From Escherichia coli (lineage in GTDB: Bacteria > Pseudomonadota > Gammaproteobacteria > Enterobacterales > Enterobacteriaceae), in NCBI RefSeq assembly GCF_044647545.1, contig NZ_CP172818.1: a stretch of DNA of 64,000 bases. One strand, 5' to 3'. Each line of letters starts with the position of its first letter. Positions within the stretch are counted from its first letter, which is position 1. The notes below the pieces were generated by a model. The model was not told the DNA's origin. It saw only the letters and a list, made by a program, of their open reading frames with translations, and ran no database searches. This document shows, in pieces, positions 32,673 through 42,676 of the stretch. The translations under genes were made by a program, and so were the position numbers.

Positions 32673-33482
32673 TCACTCCCCGACCAGAATCACTTCAACC
32701 CCAGCCTTTCGCAGTCCTTCCAGACTATCCGCAGGAATGCCTTCATCAACAATGATCATGTCGATACGTTGAGTATCAATGATCTTATGTAAACTGGAAC
32801 GGTTGAACTTACTGGAATCGGTGACCACGATGATCCGTTCCGCAACTTCGCACATCCGACGGTTTAAACGGGCTTCATCTTCATTATGCGTGCTGACGCC
32901 GCGCTCCAGATCGATCGCATCTACACCAAGAAACAGCATATCGAAGTGGTAATTTTGCAGCGATTGCTCAGCCTGATCACCGTAAAAAGATTGCGACTGA
33001 CGGCGCAAATGCCCCCCGGTCATCAGCAGCTCAACGCCTTCCGCTTCCAGCAACGCATTAGCCACGTTCATACCGTTGGTCATCGCAATTACGTCGGTGT
33101 GCTTGCGCATCAGACGAGCAATCTCAAAAGTGGTGGTCCCGGAGTCGAGGATCACCCGATGACCAGGCTGAATCAACTCAACGGCAGCTTTCGCAACGCT
33201 GCGTTTCATTGCGGTGTTCAGCGCGCTTTTATCTTCCACTGATGGCTCGACTGACGGCGTCGTGCTATCGCAGATCAACGCGCCGCCATAGGCACGCACA
33301 GCGATCCCCTGCTTTTCCAGAAACGCCAGATCGTTGCGGATCGTCACAGTAGATACACCATACAACGCCGATAGATCATTAACTTGCACACTCCCTTGCT
33401 GGCGCAGGCGTTGAATGATCTGCTCTCGTCGCTCACTGGTGCCTGTCACTCGCTTCTCGCCTGAAGCGTCGGTATTACTCAT
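32673..33482 (-). CDS. agaR: DeoR-family repressor of the aga operon
   Basis: 269 aa ORF. Confidence 0.9.
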
Positions 33483-33490
33483 AGTAAGTC

Positions 33491-33700
33491 CTTTCGTAAA
33501 ACTTTCGTTTCATTTCGTTTTGCCTATTAACGCCTTTCTATTAAGCAAATGCAAGCCCACCTTACCCATTGGCGCAAGCTACTCTCGTTTCAGTGGCTTT
33601 CATTATGTTTCTTTTGTGAATCAGATCAGAAAACTATTATCTTTCGTTTTATTTTTATCTCACCATGGCGCAGTATCAACTGAAACAAAACGAAAGATTA
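33491..33700. promoter_or_regulatory. agaR-kbaZ divergent control region with repeated CTTTCGTTT-type motifs (putative AgaR operators)
   Basis: ctttcgtaaaactttcgtttcatttcgtttt (33491-33521), ctttcgttttatttttatc (33641-33659), aaaacgaaagat (33687-33698). Confidence 0.5.
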
Positions 33701-33730
33701 ATATCGCAGTAATCTGAACTGGAGAGGAAA

Positions 33731-35011
33731 GTGAAACATCTGACAGAAATGGTGAGACAGCACAAAGAGGGCAAAACAAATGGGATTTATGCCGTTTGTT
33801 CCGCACATCCGCTGGTGCTGGAAGCTGCAATCCGCTACGCCAGTGCAAACCAAACGCCGTTACTGATTGAAGCAACCTCCAATCAGGTGGACCAGTTCGG
33901 CGGTTATACCGGAATGACGCCCGCCGATTTTCGCGGCTTTGTTTGTCAGCTCGCCGACTCGTTGAATTTCCCACAGGATGCGTTGATTCTGGGTGGCGAC
34001 CATCTGGGGCCAAACCGCTGGCAAAACCTGCCTGCCGCTCAGGCAATGGCCAATGCCGATGATTTGATTAAAAGCTACGTGGCGGCAGGATTCAAAAAAA
34101 TTCACCTTGATTGCAGCATGTCCTGTCAGGACGATCCGATTCCCTTAACTGATGACATCGTGGCCGAACGCGCCGCTCGTCTGGCGAAAGTGGCGGAAGA
34201 AACCTGCCGTGAACATTTTGGCGCGGCCGATCTGGAGTATGTCATTGGTACCGAAGTACCGGTACCTGGCGGCGCGCATGAAACCTTAAGCGAGCTGGCG
34301 GTCACCACGCCGGATGCCGCCCGCGCCACACTGGAAGCCCATCGCCACGCCTTTGAAAAGCAGGGCCTGAATGCCATCTGGCCACGCATTATTGCCCTGG
34401 TGGTTCAACCCGGCGTCGAATTCGATCACACCAACGTTATTGATTATCAGCCAGCTAAAGCGACCGCATTAAGCCAGATGGTCGAAAACTACGAAACGCT
34501 GATTTTCGAAGCGCACTCTACCGATTACCAAACGCCGCAATCGTTGCGCCAGCTGGTGATTGACCACTTTGCCATTCTGAAAGTTGGCCCGGCGCTGACC
34601 TTCGCCCTGCGTGAAGCTCTGTTCTCTCTGGCGGCGATTGAAGAAGAACTGGTGCCAGCAAAAGCCTGTTCTGGTCTGCGTCAGGTGCTGGAAAACGTGA
34701 TGCTCGACCGCCCGGAATACTGGCAAAGCCACTACCACGGTGACGGCAACGCGCGTCGTCTGGCGCGTGGTTATAGCTACTCGGATCGCGTGCGCTATTA
34801 CTGGCCGGACAGCCAGATTGATGACGCTTTCGCTCATCTGGTTCGTAATCTGGCGGATTCACCAATTCCGCTACCGCTCATCAGCCAGTATTTGCCGCTG
34901 CAATACGTGAAAGTTCGCTCCGGCGAGCTGCAGCCAACACCACGGGAACTCATTATCAACCATATTCAGGACATCCTGGCGCAGTACCACACAGCCTGTG
35001 AAGGCCAATAA
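33731..35011 (+). CDS. kbaZ: Tagatose-bisphosphate aldolase subunit KbaZ
   Basis: 426 aa ORF. Confidence 0.9.
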
Positions 35012-35517: not shown

Positions 35518-35919
35518 ATGGAAATCAGTCTGTTGCAGGCATTCGCGTTGGGCATTATCGCCTTTATCGCTGGCCTGGATATGTTTAACGGCCTAACCCA
35601 TATGCACCGCCCGGTGGTCCTCGGCCCGTTGGTCGGGCTGGTACTTGGCGATCTGCATACCGGTATTTTAACCGGCGGTACGCTGGAACTGGTGTGGATG
35701 GGGCTGGCCCCGCTGGCGGGCGCACAGCCGCCTAACGTGATTATCGGTACTATCGTCGGCACGGCGTTTGCCATTACTACTGGCGTGAAACCCGATGTCG
35801 CGGTCGGTGTCGCCGTACCTTTCGCTGTCGCAGTACAGATGGGGATTACCTTCCTGTTCTCGGTGATGTCCGGCGTGATGTCCCGCGGCGACCTGGCAAC
35901 AAACCCGTGCCGCGTTTGA
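35518..35919 (+). pseudogene. agaW: Truncated PTS EIIC gene (agaW'), K-12-type
   Basis: 133 aa EIIC N-terminal fragment ending abruptly (...DLATNPCRV*). Confidence 0.8.
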
Positions 35920-36442: not shown

Positions 36443-36509
36443 TGGTTTGCTCCTTTATTGGGCCTTCACTTCCCCCGTAAGGCCTTTCTTTTTCTTTCTT
36501 TTTGATCTG

Positions 36510-36575
36510 TGCAGCGGTGTCGGATGCGACGCTGACGCGTCTTCTTCGACCTACGGTACGCCGCATCCGGCAATC
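36510..36575. repeat. REP-like element
   Basis: gtcggatgcgacgc ... gccgcatccggca. Confidence 0.5.
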
Positions 36576-36639
36576 GGTGAACATAGCGACGTTATCACGC
36601 AATCCTTTAATCTTCCCTTGTCTTTTCTTTCAATGATCA

Positions 36640-36755
36640 CAAATTTCGTTTTATTTCTTTTTTCTCCATTGAACTTTCAGTTTCTTTTCTATAGATTTTA
36701 ATCAACGAAAGACATCACCAAGTGAAATGAAACGAAAGGTAAGCGAAAGCGACAA
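36640..36755. promoter_or_regulatory. agaS upstream region with repeated GAAACGAAAG/CGAAAG motifs (putative AgaR operators)
   Basis: tttcgttttatttc (36644-36657), aatcaacgaaagac (36711-36724), aaatgaaacgaaaggtaagcgaaagcg (36725-36751). Confidence 0.5.
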
Positions 36756-36792: not shown

Positions 36793-37947
36793 ATGCCAGA
36801 AAATTACACCCCTGCTGCCGCTGCAACCGGTACATGGACTGAAGAAGAGATCCGCCATCAGCCTCGCGCATGGATCCGTTCACTCACCAACATCGACGCG
36901 CTACGTTCCGCGCTCAATAACTTCCTTGAACCGTTACTGCGCAAAGAGAATCTGCGGGTAATCCTGACCGGAGCCGGAACCTCGGCATTTATCGGTGATA
37001 TCATCGCGCCGTGGCTCGCCAGCCATACCGGTAAAAACTTCAGCGCCGTACCGACCACCGATCTGGTCACTAATCCGATGGACTACCTGAATCCAGCTCA
37101 TCCGCTACTGTTGATCTCCTTCGGTCGATCCGGCAACAGCCCGGAAAGCGTCGCCGCCGTGGAACTGGCGAATCAGTTTGTACCGGAATGCTATCACCTG
37201 CCGATCACCTGCAACGAAGCGGGCGCTCTTTACCAAAACGCGATCAACAGCGACAACGCGTTTGCCCTGCTGATGCCCGCAGAAACGCACGATCGCGGCT
37301 TTGCGATGACCAGCAGCATTACCACCATGATGGCCAGCTGCCTCGCGGTTTTCGCACCTGAGACGATCAACAGCCAAACCTTCCGCGATGTGGCAGATCG
37401 TTGCCAGGAAATCCTGACCTCACTGGGCGATTTCAGCGAAGGTGTGTTTGGTTACGCACCGTGGAAACGGATCGTTTATCTCGGCAGCGGTGGCTTACAG
37501 GGCGCAGCACGCGAGTCGGCGCTGAAAGTACTGGAACTGACAGCGGGTAAACTGGCGGCCTTTTATGATTCCCCGACCGGATTCCGTCATGGCCCGAAAT
37601 CGCTGGTCGATAACGAAACGCTGGTGGTGGTGTTTGTCTCCAGCCACCCTTACACCCGTCAGTATGATCTTGATCTGCTGGCAGAACTCCGCCGCGATAA
37701 CCAGGCATTGCGCGTAATCGCCATCGCCGCGGAAAGCAACGACGTTATTACCGCCGGTCCACATATCATCCTGCCGCCGTCCCGTCACTTTATCGACGTT
37801 GAGCAGGCATTTTGCTTCCTGATGTACGCCCAGACGTTTGCACTGATGCAGTCGCTGCACATGGGTAATACGCCGGATACCCCATCAGCCAGTGGCACCG
37901 TTAACCGCGTGGTGCAAGGCGTAATCATTCATCCGTGGCAGGCATAA
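36793..37947 (+). CDS. agaS: Galactosamine-6-phosphate deaminase/isomerase (SIS domains)
   Basis: 384 aa ORF. Confidence 0.9.
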   Translation: MPENYTPAAAATGTWTEEEIRHQPRAWIRSLTNIDALRSALNNFLEPLLRKENLRVILTGAGTSAFIGDIIAPWLASHTGKNFSAVPTTDLVTNPMDYLNPAHPLLLISFGRSGNSPESVAAVELANQFVPECYHLPITCNEAGALYQNAINSDNAFALLMPAETHDRGFAMTSSITTMMASCLAVFAPETINSQTFRDVADRCQEILTSLGDFSEGVFGYAPWKRIVYLGSGGLQGAARESALKVLELTAGKLAAFYDSPTGFRHGPKSLVDNETLVVVFVSSHPYTRQYDLDLLAELRRDNQALRVIAIAAESNDVITAGPHIILPPSRHFIDVEQAFCFLMYAQTFALMQSLHMGNTPDTPSASGTVNRVVQGVIIHPWQA

Positions 37948-38986: not shown

Positions 38987-39463
38987 ATGAGCAGTCCAAA
39001 TATTCTCTTAACCCGTATTGATAACCGTCTGGTTCACGGTCAGGTTGGCGTGACCTGGACATCCACCATCGGTGCGAATCTGTTGGTAGTCGTGGATGAT
39101 GTTGTCGCTAACGATGATATTCAACAGAAATTAATGGGTATTACCGCAGAAACCTACGGCTTTGGCATTCGTTTCTTTACTATCGAAAAAACCATTAACG
39201 TCATCGGCAAAGCTGCACCGCATCAGAAGATCTTCCTGATTTGCCGTACGCCACAAACGGTACGTAAATTGGTAGAAGGTGGTATTGACCTGAAAGATGT
39301 CAACGTCGGCAATATGCATTTCTCGGAAGGGAAAAAGCAAATCAGCAGTAAAGTTTATGTCGATGACCAGGATCTCACGGACTTACATTTTATTAAACAA
39401 CGTGGCGTGAATGTTTTCATTCAGGACGTCCCTGGCGATCAAAAAGAACAAATCCCTGACTAA
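38987..39463 (+). CDS. agaB: PTS galactosamine-specific EIIB
   Basis: 158 aa ORF; paralogous to agaV (LxRIDxRLxHGQVG N-terminus). Confidence 0.9.
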   Translation: MSSPNILLTRIDNRLVHGQVGVTWTSTIGANLLVVVDDVVANDDIQQKLMGITAETYGFGIRFFTIEKTINVIGKAAPHQKIFLICRTPQTVRKLVEGGIDLKDVNVGNMHFSEGKKQISSKVYVDDQDLTDLHFIKQRGVNVFIQDVPGDQKEQIPD

Positions 39464-41086: not shown

Positions 41087-41953
41087 ATGGAACGAGGCAC
41101 TGCGTCTGGCGGTGCCTCTTTACTTAAGGAATTTCATCCTGTGCAAACCCTTCAACAAGTTGAAAACTATACGGCGTTAAGTGAACGTGCCAGCGAATAT
41201 TTATTGGCCGTGATCCGTAGTAAACCGGATGCCGTGATTTGCCTGGCGACCGGAGCCACGCCATTACTGACGTATCATTATCTGGTAGAAAAAATCCACC
41301 AGCAGCAGGTTGATGTCAGCCAGCTCACCTTCGTGAAGCTCGACGAATGGGTGGATCTGCCATTAACAATGCCTGGCACCTGCGAAACTTTCCTACAACA
41401 GCATATCGTGCAGCCGCTGGGGCTGCGTGAAGACCAGCTCATCAGCTTTCGCTCTGAAGAGATAAATGAGACAGAGTGCGAACGGGTAACGAACCTGATT
41501 GCGCGCAAAGGCGGTCTGGATTTATGCGTTCTCGGATTGGGGAAAAACGGTCATCTTGGGCTGAACGAACCGGGAGAAAGCCTGCAACCGGCCTGCCATA
41601 TCAGTCAACTTGATGCCAGAACACAGCAACATGAGATGTTAAAAACCGCGGGCCGTCCCGTGACTCGTGGGATCACCTTAGGCCTGAAGGATATTCTCAA
41701 TACCCGCGAAGTTTTGCTACTGGTGACTGGCGAAGGAAAGCAGGATGCGACAGAACGTTTTCTCACGGCTAAAGTCTCTACCGCTATCCCGGCTTCTTGG
41801 GGCAACGCCCACACTCTCCCCCTGCTGCTCCAGTGCATACTTATACAGCGCATTTTTCTTCACGCCGTGAATTTCTGCTGCCAGCGCCGCCGCTTTTTTC
41901 AGTGGCAGTTCTGCCTGCAACAGCGCCAGCGTGCGCAGGGCATCGGCGGGTAA
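41087..41953 (+). pseudogene. agaI: Glucosamine-6-phosphate deaminase/isomerase-like gene with altered 3' end (native stop lost; frame runs antisense into rsmI)
   Basis: ORF is 288 aa versus an expected ~251; tail after ~41815 is the antisense of the rsmI 3' end. Confidence 0.7.
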
Positions 41954-42676
41954 GTCTTCTTCCTGTGCTTTATGGCCTTCGACAATCAGTACCATTTCGC
42001 CTTTGCGACGGTTTTCATCTTCTTTGACCCACGCCAGCAGCTCGCCAACGGGCGCGCCGTGAATGGTTTCCCAGGTTTTGGTCAGCTCACGCGCCAGAAC
42101 GACGTAGCGGGATTCGCCTAATACCGCAACGATATCTTCCAGGCTATCTAACAGACGGTGGGTAGATTCATAAAAAATCAGCGTGCGCGGCTCCGCTTCA
42201 ATGGCTTTTAGCGCATCACGGCGGCCTTTTGATTTGGCAGGTAAAAAGCCTTCATAACAAAAACGATCGGATGGTAAACCCGCGGCGCTTAACGCAGTGA
42301 TAGCAGCACACGGCCCGGGTAGCGGCACCACGCGAATCCCCGCTTCACGGCAGGTACGCACCAGATGGTAGCCAGGATCGTTAATTAGCGGCGTTCCGGC
42401 ATCGGAAACCAGCGCAATGTTTTGCCCCTCTTGCAGCTTCGCCAGCAGCGTTTCGGCTTTTTGTTGTTCGTTATGGTCGTGCAGCGCAAACAACCGAGCA
42501 TTAATCCCAAAATGTTGCAGCAATAAACCGGTGTGACGCGTATCCTCGGCGGCAATCAGATCAACGGCCTGTAATACCTCCAACGCACGCTGGGTGATAT
42601 CCGCCAGATTGCCGATTGGCGTCGGTACAATGTAAAGCTGGCCCTGAGAATTATCCGCCGATTGGTGTTGTTTCAT
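41717..42676 (-). CDS. rsmI: 16S rRNA 2'-O-ribose C1402 methyltransferase with a ~32-aa C-terminal extension (native stop lost)
   Basis: ORF 319 aa; residues 1-287 read as RsmI ([30 protein letters not shown] ... ALEQQGE), then [32 protein letters not shown], which is antisense to agaI. Confidence 0.8.

What the first reader, a model, noticed from the sequence alone, without database searches (positions are those of the whole stretch)
33491..33700. Arrays of CTTTCGTTT / AAACGAAAG motifs flanking aga promoters
At least three copies lie in the agaR-kbaZ divergent region, and three more upstream of agaS (36644-36751), in both orientations. The pattern is consistent with cooperative DeoR-type AgaR operator sites controlling agaR, kbaZ and agaS.
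Basis: partly seen in the sequence, partly recalled or inferred. Interest (0 to 1): 0.3.

Follow-up and report, generated by a model that had tools for sequence, protein, structure and literature searches.

The report
Known AgaR repressor operators, aga promoters
The repeated CTTTCGTTT motifs are real and far above chance, but they are the already-characterised binding sites of the AgaR repressor at the three promoters of the E. coli N-acetylgalactosamine (aga) gene cluster, so the finding is correct and ordinary.

Summary
Exact CTTTCGTTT occurs 4 times in 64 kb (0.76 expected), and all four copies lie in the agaR-kbaZ spacer or upstream of agaS. Six of the seven TTTCGTTT octamers in the window lie in 598 bp.

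The window is the E. coli aga locus. agaR encodes a DeoR-family repressor (HTH_DeoR plus DeoRC).

The 9-mers are halves of about 20-24-bp operators built from TTTC(R) repeats. I count seven operators: one near agaR, three at kbaZ and three at agaS.

In about 70 other Enterobacterales species these operators sit at the same positions and with the same spacings. TTTCRTTT density there is about 18 per kb, against 0.17 per kb in the flanking DNA. All conserved units are identical to E. coli K-12, where AgaR binding to PR, PZ and PS was shown (Ray & Larson 2004, as cited in PMC3668189 and PMC5018945). The sequence at 33502-33520 is the AgaR site used in PMC8667592.

An RNA-hairpin reading is rejected because the arms show no compensatory changes.

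Verdict: already known, low interest.

Seen in passing: a K-12-like 2.3-kb agaW-agaA deletion in a non-K-12 background.

The parts
32673..33482 (-). agaR, a DeoR-family repressor gene
   Evidence: ORF. Pfam HTH_DeoR 1.9e-21 and DeoRC 3.3e-55. Annotated agaR in K-12 and FDAARGOS_497.
33499..33522 (+). Operator next to agaR (my label O_R1): AAACTTTCGTTTCATTTCGTTTTG, with units at 33502 and 33512 spaced 10 bp apart. It probably covers +1 to about +18 of the agaR promoter.
   Evidence: Zero mismatches to the 24-bp consensus. It equals the AgaR site of PMC8667592 Table S3. The unit at 33502 is exact in 93% of 73 sequences.
33491..33499 (+). Extra copy CTTTCGTAA, 11 bp upstream of 33502. Escherichia-specific.
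   Evidence: Two mismatches. Two mismatches or fewer in only 4% of species.
33526..33554 (-). Putative agaR promoter (inferred): -35 TTGCAT (33554-33549), 17-bp spacer, -10 GTTAAT (33531-33526). The spacer contains the conserved unit CTTTCTATT at 33534-33542, which is CTTTCTTTT in most species.
   Evidence: Blocks conserved at 95% or more. Distance from O_R1 fixed at 45 bp in 68 of 70. The unit at 33534 has one mismatch or fewer in 86%. The transcription start was not determined here.
33582..33590 (+). Copy CTCTCGTTT in the unconserved centre of the spacer. Probably not a core operator.
   Evidence: One mismatch. Conserved in 3% of species. The surrounding 33558-33596 is unconserved.
33594..33617 (+). 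Distal kbaZ operator (O_Z3): TGGCTTTCATTATGTTTCTTTTGT. It abuts the CRP-like site.
   Evidence: Two mismatches to the consensus. Units 33597 and 33607 are conserved in 89-95%. Found at -135 from the kbaZ start in 63 loci.
33615..33630 (.). CRP-like site TGTGAatcagaTCAGA (inferred activator site for the kbaZ promoter)
   Evidence: One mismatch to TGTGA-N6-TCACA. Conserved across genera. Not statistically special on its own.
33638..33661 (+). kbaZ promoter operator (O_Z2): TATCTTTCGTTTTATTTTTATCTC. It probably lies over the -35 region.
   Evidence: Exact 9-mer at 33641. Exact in 81% and one mismatch or fewer in 96% of species. Exactly 44 bp from O_Z3 in 65 of 70.
33676..33699 (-). Proximal kbaZ operator (O_Z1), inverted orientation: AATCTTTCGTTTTGTTTCAGTTGA. 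It probably covers the start site and early transcript.
   Evidence: Exact 9-mer at 33688(-). Three mismatches to the consensus. One mismatch or fewer in 97%. Forms a 16-nt inverted repeat with 33639-33654.
33731..35011 (+). kbaZ (agaZ), first gene of the kbaZ-agaV-agaW'-'agaA operon
   Evidence: ORF. Pfam GatZ_KbaZ-like 1.7e-202.
36640..36663 (+). Distal agaS operator (O_S3): CAAATTTCGTTTTATTTCTTTTTT
   Evidence: One mismatch to the consensus. Block 36637-36660 is conserved. The unit has one mismatch or fewer in 78%.
36669..36697 (+). Putative agaS promoter (inferred): -35 TTGAAC (36669-36674), 17-bp spacer, -10 TAGATT (36692-36697). Operator O_S2 (CTTTCAGTTTCTTTTCTATA, 36674-36693) lies inside it.
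   Evidence: Conserved block 36670-36700. The unit at 36674 is CTTTCGATT or CTTTCGTTT in most species, with one mismatch or fewer in 79%. The Oa-Ob spacing is 30-32 bp in 64 of 65. The transcription start was not determined here.
36703..36711 (-). Copy CTTTCGTTG. Escherichia-specific.
   Evidence: One mismatch. Conserved in 3%.
36718..36741 (-). Proximal agaS operator (O_S1): TACCTTTCGTTTCATTTCACTTGG, downstream of the putative -10
   Evidence: Zero mismatches to the consensus. The 9-mer at 36730 is exact in 90%. Found at about -75 from the agaS ATG in about 64 loci.
36741..36749 (-). Copy CTTTCGCTT. Escherichia-specific, and differs in K-12 (36744 C versus T).
   Evidence: One mismatch. Conserved in 3%. 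K-12 difference.
36793..37947 (+). agaS, first gene of the agaS-kbaY-agaBCDI operon
   Evidence: ORF. Pfam SIS domain 2.8e-41.

Best explanation
The motifs are the operator sites of AgaR, the DeoR/GlpR-family repressor encoded at 32673-33482. Each functional operator is about 20-24 bp long and consists of TTTC(R)-type repeats in direct register, with consensus roughly CTTTCGTTTYATTTCNNTTG. Seven conserved operators are arranged around three promoters: one over the start of the agaR transcript, giving autoregulation; three at kbaZ (upstream next to a CRP-like site, over the -35 region, and inverted over the start site); and three at agaS (upstream, inside the -35/-10 spacer, and inverted downstream of the -10). 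When no inducer is present, AgaR oligomers occupy these sites and block RNA polymerase binding or escape. Growth on N-acetylgalactosamine or galactosamine releases AgaR and, together with cAMP-CRP, turns the operons on. What is shown here or in the cited papers: the motif enrichment, gene identities, conservation of sites and spacing, AgaR binding at PR/PZ/PS, and repression through the 33502-33520 sequence. What is inferred: the exact -35/-10/+1 positions, the CRP role, and cooperativity or looping between operators.
For: Enrichment: 4 exact copies against 0.76 expected. Six of 7 TTTCGTTT octamers lie in 598 bp. Spacer-only shuffles reach the observed counts in 0 or 1 of 2000 in all mismatch classes except the single exact copy in the agaS region (30 of 2000). 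The 24-bp consensus gives 6 hits at 3 mismatches or fewer against 0.10 expected, all in aga regulatory DNA. Cognate regulator: agaR has HTH_DeoR and DeoRC. Cross-species: in 80 Enterobacterales agaR loci, TTTC[AG]TTT occurs at 18.4 per kb (agaR-kbaZ spacer) and 17.7 per kb (agaS upstream), against 0.17 per kb elsewhere. Consensus hits sit at fixed offsets (-235, -135 and -55 from kbaZ; -150 and -75 from agaS), with only 1 hit outside the aga control regions in 964 kb. Phylogenetic footprints coincide with the operators. Operator spacings are fixed at 96, 44 and 57 bp, and at 31 and 64 bp. [quoted passage not shown] Tandem binding to repeat sequences is described in PMC5018945. Deleting agaR makes the regulon constitutive (PMC3668189). 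CTTTCGTTTCATTT(T)CGTTT is used as the AgaR site and represses a synthetic promoter at +1 (PMC8667592). All conserved operator units are identical between the window and K-12.
Against: I could not read the primary footprinting paper (Ray & Larson 2004) or Leyn et al. 2012. The match between my seven operators and the published footprints is therefore indirect, and the 24-bp consensus I used is recalled from memory. The sigma-70 scan did not call the promoters I propose, because they fall below its 9-of-12 or A2 rule. Cooperativity is not demonstrated.
Confidence: 0.94

Rival explanations
1. The inverted copies (33639-33654 with 33683-33698; 36644-36657 with 36724-36737) form RNA or DNA hairpins that act as attenuators or terminators rather than protein sites.
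For: 16-nt and 14-nt inverted repeats exist. The kbaZ one folds at -13 kcal/mol with z = -2.9.
Against: Across about 72 species, variation in the arms breaks pairs (80 and 85 broken cells) and there are almost no compensatory changes (4 and 0). The agaS fold is no better than shuffles, z = -0.75. The conserved -35/-10-like blocks lie between the arms, so the upstream arm is probably not transcribed. Direct-orientation copies at 33502, 33512 and 33597 have no partner. No Rfam family matches.
Confidence: 0.02
2. The motifs are bound mainly by another regulator, for example the paralogous DeoR-type GatR, NagC or a nucleoid protein, and only coincidentally sit next to agaR.
For: DeoR-family paralogues exist in E. 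coli. I did not test other regulators' motifs apart from a CRP scan.
Against: The motif tracks agaR in 80 loci and is essentially absent from flanking DNA. AgaR titration represses through this exact sequence (PMC8667592). Deleting agaR derepresses the regulon (PMC3668189).
Confidence: 0.03
3. The motifs are chance clusters in T-rich, low-complexity promoter DNA.
For: The spacers contain 34-35% T. A CT-rich run at 36481-36504 also matches the consensus at 3 mismatches.
Against: Composition-matched shuffles almost never reach the observed counts. The motifs are positionally conserved across genera while the neighbouring spacer sequence is not.
Confidence: 0.01

Closest known systems
AgaR operators of the E. 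coli K-12 aga/gam regulon (Ray & Larson 2004, Mol Microbiol 51:813; comparative analysis in Leyn et al. 2012, JBC 287:28047)
   Same: This is the same locus, the same three promoters (PR, PZ, PS) and the same repeat sequences. All conserved units are identical to K-12. The published AgaR site from PkbaZ equals 33502-33520.
   Different: Nothing substantive differs. The window comes from a non-K-12 strain that is 97.5% identical to K-12 over the cluster, with 5 SNPs in the agaR-kbaZ spacer, none of them in an operator.
GlpR operators of the E. coli glp regulon (DeoR/GlpR family)
   Same: A repressor of the same family. Multiple tandem operators overlap and flank the promoters. CRP acts as co-activator. 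Cooperative binding and looping are described for that system (from general knowledge, not tested here).
   Different: The operator sequence is different, and glp half-sites are arranged as palindromes. The aga units are mostly head-to-tail TTTC(R) repeats plus one inverted proximal site per promoter.
DeoR operators O1, O2 and OE of the E. coli deo operon
   Same: A DeoR-family repressor acting through several separated operators (general knowledge).
   Different: The deo operators are 16-bp palindromes hundreds of bp apart. The aga operators are non-palindromic repeats within about 200 bp.
Streptococcal AgaR / AgaR1 / AgaR2 operators (PMC5018945, PMC4694137)
   Same: The same name, and the same pathway under control (GalNAc/GalN utilisation).
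   Different: Those regulators belong to the GntR/HutC family and bind even palindromes of 18-20 bp. They are not homologous to the DeoR-type AgaR here.

Membership tests
E. coli AgaR (DeoR-family) operator sites | The sites lie in the promoter regions of agaR, kbaZ (agaZ) and agaS. | tested here: met
   Motif coordinates lie inside the agaR-kbaZ spacer 33483-33730 and within 160 bp upstream of agaS.
E. coli AgaR (DeoR-family) operator sites | The sequence matches a published AgaR binding sequence. | tested here: met
   PMC8667592 Table S3 lists CTTTCGTTTCATTTTCGTTT (PkbaZ). Window 33502-33520 is CTTTCGTTTCATTTCGTTT. The two are identical apart from one extra T in the table as stored.
E. coli AgaR (DeoR-family) operator sites | The sequence matches the Ray & Larson 24-bp consensus WRMMTTTCRTTTYRTTTYNYTTKK. 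| tested here: inconclusive
   There are 6 hits at 3 mismatches or fewer against 0.10 expected, two of them perfect. The consensus string is recalled from memory, and the paper is not held, so its wording is unverified.
E. coli AgaR (DeoR-family) operator sites | The cognate DeoR-type regulator is encoded adjacently. | tested here: met
   HTH_DeoR plus DeoRC in the 32673-33482(-) product.
E. coli AgaR (DeoR-family) operator sites | The sites co-occur with agaR orthologues and are positionally conserved (regulon footprint). | tested here: met
   About 100-fold enrichment in 80 loci. Fixed offsets. Per-unit conservation of 80-97%. Fixed spacing.
E. coli AgaR (DeoR-family) operator sites | AgaR physically binds the sites, and repression depends on AgaR. 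| not testable with these tools
   Reported for K-12 and E. coli C in the literature (PMC3668189; PMC5018945; PMC8667592). The window's operators are identical to K-12.
Structured cis-regulatory RNA (attenuator or riboswitch) | Base pairs are conserved through compensatory changes, or a known RNA family matches. | tested here: not met
   4 and 0 compensatory cells against 80 and 85 broken cells. No Rfam hit at E of 1 or below.

The most novel reading that the evidence does not exclude
The seven operators may form one fixed-geometry nucleoprotein complex. The spacings of 96, 44 and 57 bp in the divergent agaR-kbaZ region, and 31 and 64 bp at agaS, are held constant across Enterobacterales, even across a 40-bp stretch whose sequence is free to vary. 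Each promoter is bracketed by a convergent pair of operators. This would mean that AgaR oligomers loop or wrap the DNA and repress PR and PZ jointly. Escherichia has in addition gained four lineage-specific extra repeats (33491, 33582, 36703, 36741). As far as I could verify, this architecture-level conservation is not spelled out in the papers I could read.
Probability: 0.3. Interest if true: 0.25.

Novelty: already known. Interest (0 to 1): 0.08.

Why it matters
It matters little beyond annotation. The result shows that a reader working from sequence alone correctly recognised a textbook-type repressor-operator system. The refined map may help anyone engineering GalNAc-responsive promoters or using the AgaR site as a synthetic part. 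That map covers which copies are conserved core operators and which are Escherichia-specific extras, the constant inter-operator spacing, and the probable promoter elements.

Tried and rejected
Literature access:
- I tried to read Ray & Larson 2004 (PMID 14731281) and Leyn et al. 2012 (PMC3431674). Neither is held.
- Full-text searches for the consensus string, or for 'AgaR' plus the motif, found nothing usable. 'agar' mostly matches the growth medium.

Promoter and activator scans:
- The generic sigma-70 scan gave only two minus-strand candidates in the agaR-kbaZ spacer and none upstream of agaS. I therefore inferred the promoter positions from conserved blocks, and they remain unverified.
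- A CRP consensus scan is not enriched window-wide (32 hits against 25.8 expected). It gives one conserved 1-mismatch site at 33615-33630 and none upstream of agaS at 2 mismatches or fewer.

Rejected readings:
- The RNA-hairpin reading of the inverted repeats was tested and rejected.
- The CT-rich element at 36481-36504 matches the consensus at 3 mismatches. It is present at that position in only about 4 of 71 loci, so I do not count it as an operator.

Full report
**Observation.** The stretch 33483-33730 is the divergent spacer between an ORF on the minus strand (32673-33482) and one on the plus strand (33731-35011). Exact CTTTCGTTT or its complement occurs four times in the 64-kb window: at 33502(+), 33641(+), 33688(-) and 36730(-). 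The expectation is 0.76, and no shuffle out of 100 reaches four. One-mismatch copies add 33512, 33582, 36643, 36703(-) and 36741(-).

Six of the seven TTTCGTTT octamers in the window lie in the 598 bp made up of this spacer and the agaA'-agaS spacer. Hits at two mismatches or fewer run at 40 per kb there, against 3 per kb elsewhere.

Both spacers are T-rich, so I also shuffled each spacer on its own, preserving dinucleotides. The observed counts were reached in 0 of 2000 shuffles for IG1 at all three mismatch levels, and in 1 of 2000 (one mismatch) and 0 of 2000 (two mismatches) for the agaS region. The single exact copy in the agaS region is the exception, reached in 30 of 2000.

**Identity of the locus.** The region is present in 5410 of 5426 complete E. 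coli genomes and is annotated agaR / kbaZ / agaV / agaW / ... / agaS. It is collinear with K-12 MG1655 3,276,816 onward at 97.46% identity. The minus-strand ORF carries HTH_DeoR and DeoRC domains. The two plus-strand ORFs are GatZ_KbaZ-like and SIS (AgaS).

**Anatomy.** The 9-mer is the best-conserved part of a longer unit. Written in register, the sites read as runs of TTTC(R) pentamers:
- 33499 AAAC-TTTCG-TTTCA-TTTCG-TTTTG
- 33594 TGGC-TTTCA-TTATG-TTTCT-TTTGT
- 33638 TATC-TTTCG-TTTTA-TTTTT-ATCTC
- reverse complement of 33676-33699: AATC-TTTCG-TTTTG-TTTCA-GTTGA
- 36640 CAAA-TTTCG-TTTTA-TTTCT-TTTTT
- 36671 GAAC-TTTCA-GTTTC-TTTTC-TATAG
- reverse complement of 36718-36741: TACC-TTTCG-TTTCA-TTTCA-CTTGG

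A 24-bp degenerate consensus that I recall from Ray & Larson 2004 is WRMMTTTCRTTTYRTTTYNYTTKK. This is from memory and I could not verify it, because the paper is not held. It finds six sites at three mismatches or fewer against 0.10 expected. Two are perfect, and all lie in aga regulatory DNA.

Each promoter-proximal site is inverted relative to the upstream ones. This gives 16-nt and 14-nt inverted repeats.

**Related sequences.** A genome scan with AgaR returned 80 loci from Escherichia, Citrobacter, Klebsiella, Raoultella, Enterobacter, Kluyvera, Salmonella arizonae/diarizonae, Yersinia, Serratia, Buttiauxella, Cedecea and others. The findings from these loci are:
- The agaR-kbaZ spacer is 245-251 bp long in 72 of the 74 spacers measured (73 loci plus the window).
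- TTTC[AG]TTT density is 18.4 per kb in that spacer and 17.7 per kb in the 200 bp upstream of agaS, against 0.17 per kb in the rest of the roughly 12-kb loci.
- The 24-bp consensus hits fixed offsets: -235, -135 and -55 from the kbaZ start, and about -150 and -75 from the agaS ATG. Outside the aga control regions there is one hit in 964 kb.
- Column conservation gives footprints at 33504-33557, 33597-33660 and 33670-33697, and at 36637-36660, 36670-36700 and 36722-36738. The centre of the spacer, 33558-33596, is free to vary.
- By unit, 33502, 33641, 33688(-) and 36730(-) have one mismatch or fewer in 94-97% of sequences. Units 33534, 33597, 33607, 33512, 36643, 36674 and 36725 are also conserved. 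The copies at 33491, 33582, 36703(-) and 36741(-) are present only in Escherichia.
- Operator-to-operator distances are nearly invariant: 95-98 bp (mode 96), 44 bp, 57 bp, and 30-32 bp and 64 bp. The distance from the last operator to the agaS ATG drifts between 44 and 60 bp.

**Mechanism.** The conserved non-operator blocks resemble promoter elements, which I infer as follows:
- agaR: TTGCAT-17-GTTAAT on the minus strand (33554-33526). This places operator 33499-33522 over about +1 to +18, and a conserved CTTTCT unit inside the spacer.
- agaS: TTGAAC-17-TAGATT (36669-36697). Operator 36671-36694 lies inside this promoter and operator 36718-36741 lies just downstream.
- kbaZ: a conserved CRP-like TGTGAatcagaTCAGA (33615-33630) sits upstream of the pair 33638-33661 and 33676-33699, which brackets the likely core promoter.

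These promoter assignments are inference. The generic scan does not call them, and I could not consult the mapped start sites.

The picture is classical repression by promoter occlusion or roadblock, with autoregulation of agaR. The constant spacing is compatible with cooperative binding or looping but does not prove it.

**Literature.** Four points bear on the finding:
[quoted passage not shown] It also reports that Pz and Ps are induced 5- and 20-fold by GalNAc, and that deleting agaR makes agaA and agaS constitutive.
- PMC8667592 used CTTTCGTTTCATTT(T)CGTTT from PkbaZ as the AgaR site, which is window 33502-33520, and measured AgaR-dependent repression from it.
- The physiological inducer is stated to be unclear (PMC4694137).

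The window differs from K-12 at five positions in the agaR-kbaZ spacer and at none within 36635-36739. No difference falls in a conserved operator unit. The K-12 experiments therefore transfer directly to this window.

**Rivals.** The three rival readings fare as follows:
- An RNA-hairpin role for the inverted repeats is not supported. Arm variation across species breaks pairs (80 and 85 cells) rather than compensating (4 and 0). The agaS fold is no better than shuffles. No Rfam family matches.
- Binding by a different regulator is unlikely, given the co-occurrence with agaR and the AgaR-titration data.
- Chance is excluded.

**Verdict.** The feature is already known: these are the AgaR operators of the aga regulon. 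Interest is low. The modest additions here are a map of which copies are conserved core operators and which are lineage-specific, and the constancy of operator spacing across Enterobacterales.

**In passing.** The window carries a K-12-like 2,305-bp agaW-agaE-agaF-agaA deletion. Its flanks are 100% identical to strains with the intact cluster, and no complete genome in the collection shares its junction. The window also has a small deletion that removes the normal ends of agaI and rsmI.

Noticed in passing
window 35884-35893 (junction); agaW' 35518-35919 and 'agaA 35939-36442: The window lacks 2,305 bp (agaW 3' part, agaE, agaF, agaA 5' part) relative to FDAARGOS_497, whose flanks are 99.9-100% identical. 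This is the same kind of deletion that makes K-12 GalNAc-negative, but it sits in a background only 97.5% identical to K-12. The junction reads CCCGCGGCGACCTGG here and TCGCTGCGACCTGG in K-12, so the crossover point within the short imperfect repeat (CG..GCGACC) seems to differ. None of 5,426 complete E. coli genomes contains this 60-bp junction. The 370 genomes with a K-12-type junction match a 161-bp probe at 97.5% or less. This suggests a recurrent, independent deletion at a hotspot.
   Followed up: partly
window 41796-41812; ORFs 41087-41953(+) and 41717-42676(-): About 92-108 bp present in FDAARGOS_497 (L083 5574-5681), covering the 3' ends of convergent agaI and rsmI, are missing, and the junction has dense mismatches. 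As a result the agaI ORF is 288 aa (255 in the relative, 251 in K-12) and the rsmI ORF is 319 aa (287 in the relative). Both run past their normal stops and overlap. This could be a real variant or an assembly error.
   Followed up: partly
window 38987-39463 (agaB); 39152-39160: The closest complete genomes (FDAARGOS_497 and the seven other listed top hits, all with the same alignment pattern; only FDAARGOS_497 was inspected) appear to have an IS1 inserted in agaB. The window has an intact agaB, and the 9 bp at 39152-39160 correspond to the IS1 target-site duplication in FDAARGOS_497. As in those strains and unlike K-12, no yraH-K fimbrial operon follows agaI.
   Followed up: partly
window 36505-36620: A GC-rich palindromic, REP-like element lies between the agaA' stop and the agaS promoter. 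Almost all differences from K-12 in this spacer, including indels, cluster here, while the operator/promoter part 36635-36739 is identical.
   Followed up: no
window 36481-36504: The CT-rich run GGCCTTTCTTTTTCTTTCTTTTTG, just downstream of agaA', matches the AgaR consensus at 3 mismatches. It is found at that position in only about 4 of 71 loci. It may be a weak extra AgaR site or just low-complexity DNA.
   Followed up: partly
L002 (E. coli E69) and L020, L030, L036, L040, L044, L048, L053, L056, L062, L069, L072, L078, L079: In these loci agaS starts about 1 kb closer to kbaZ than in the intact E. coli cluster. In L016, L017, L023, L059 and L076 it is closer still. The gene content between kbaZ and agaS therefore varies among Enterobacterales, while the operator architecture at both promoters is kept.
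   Followed up: no
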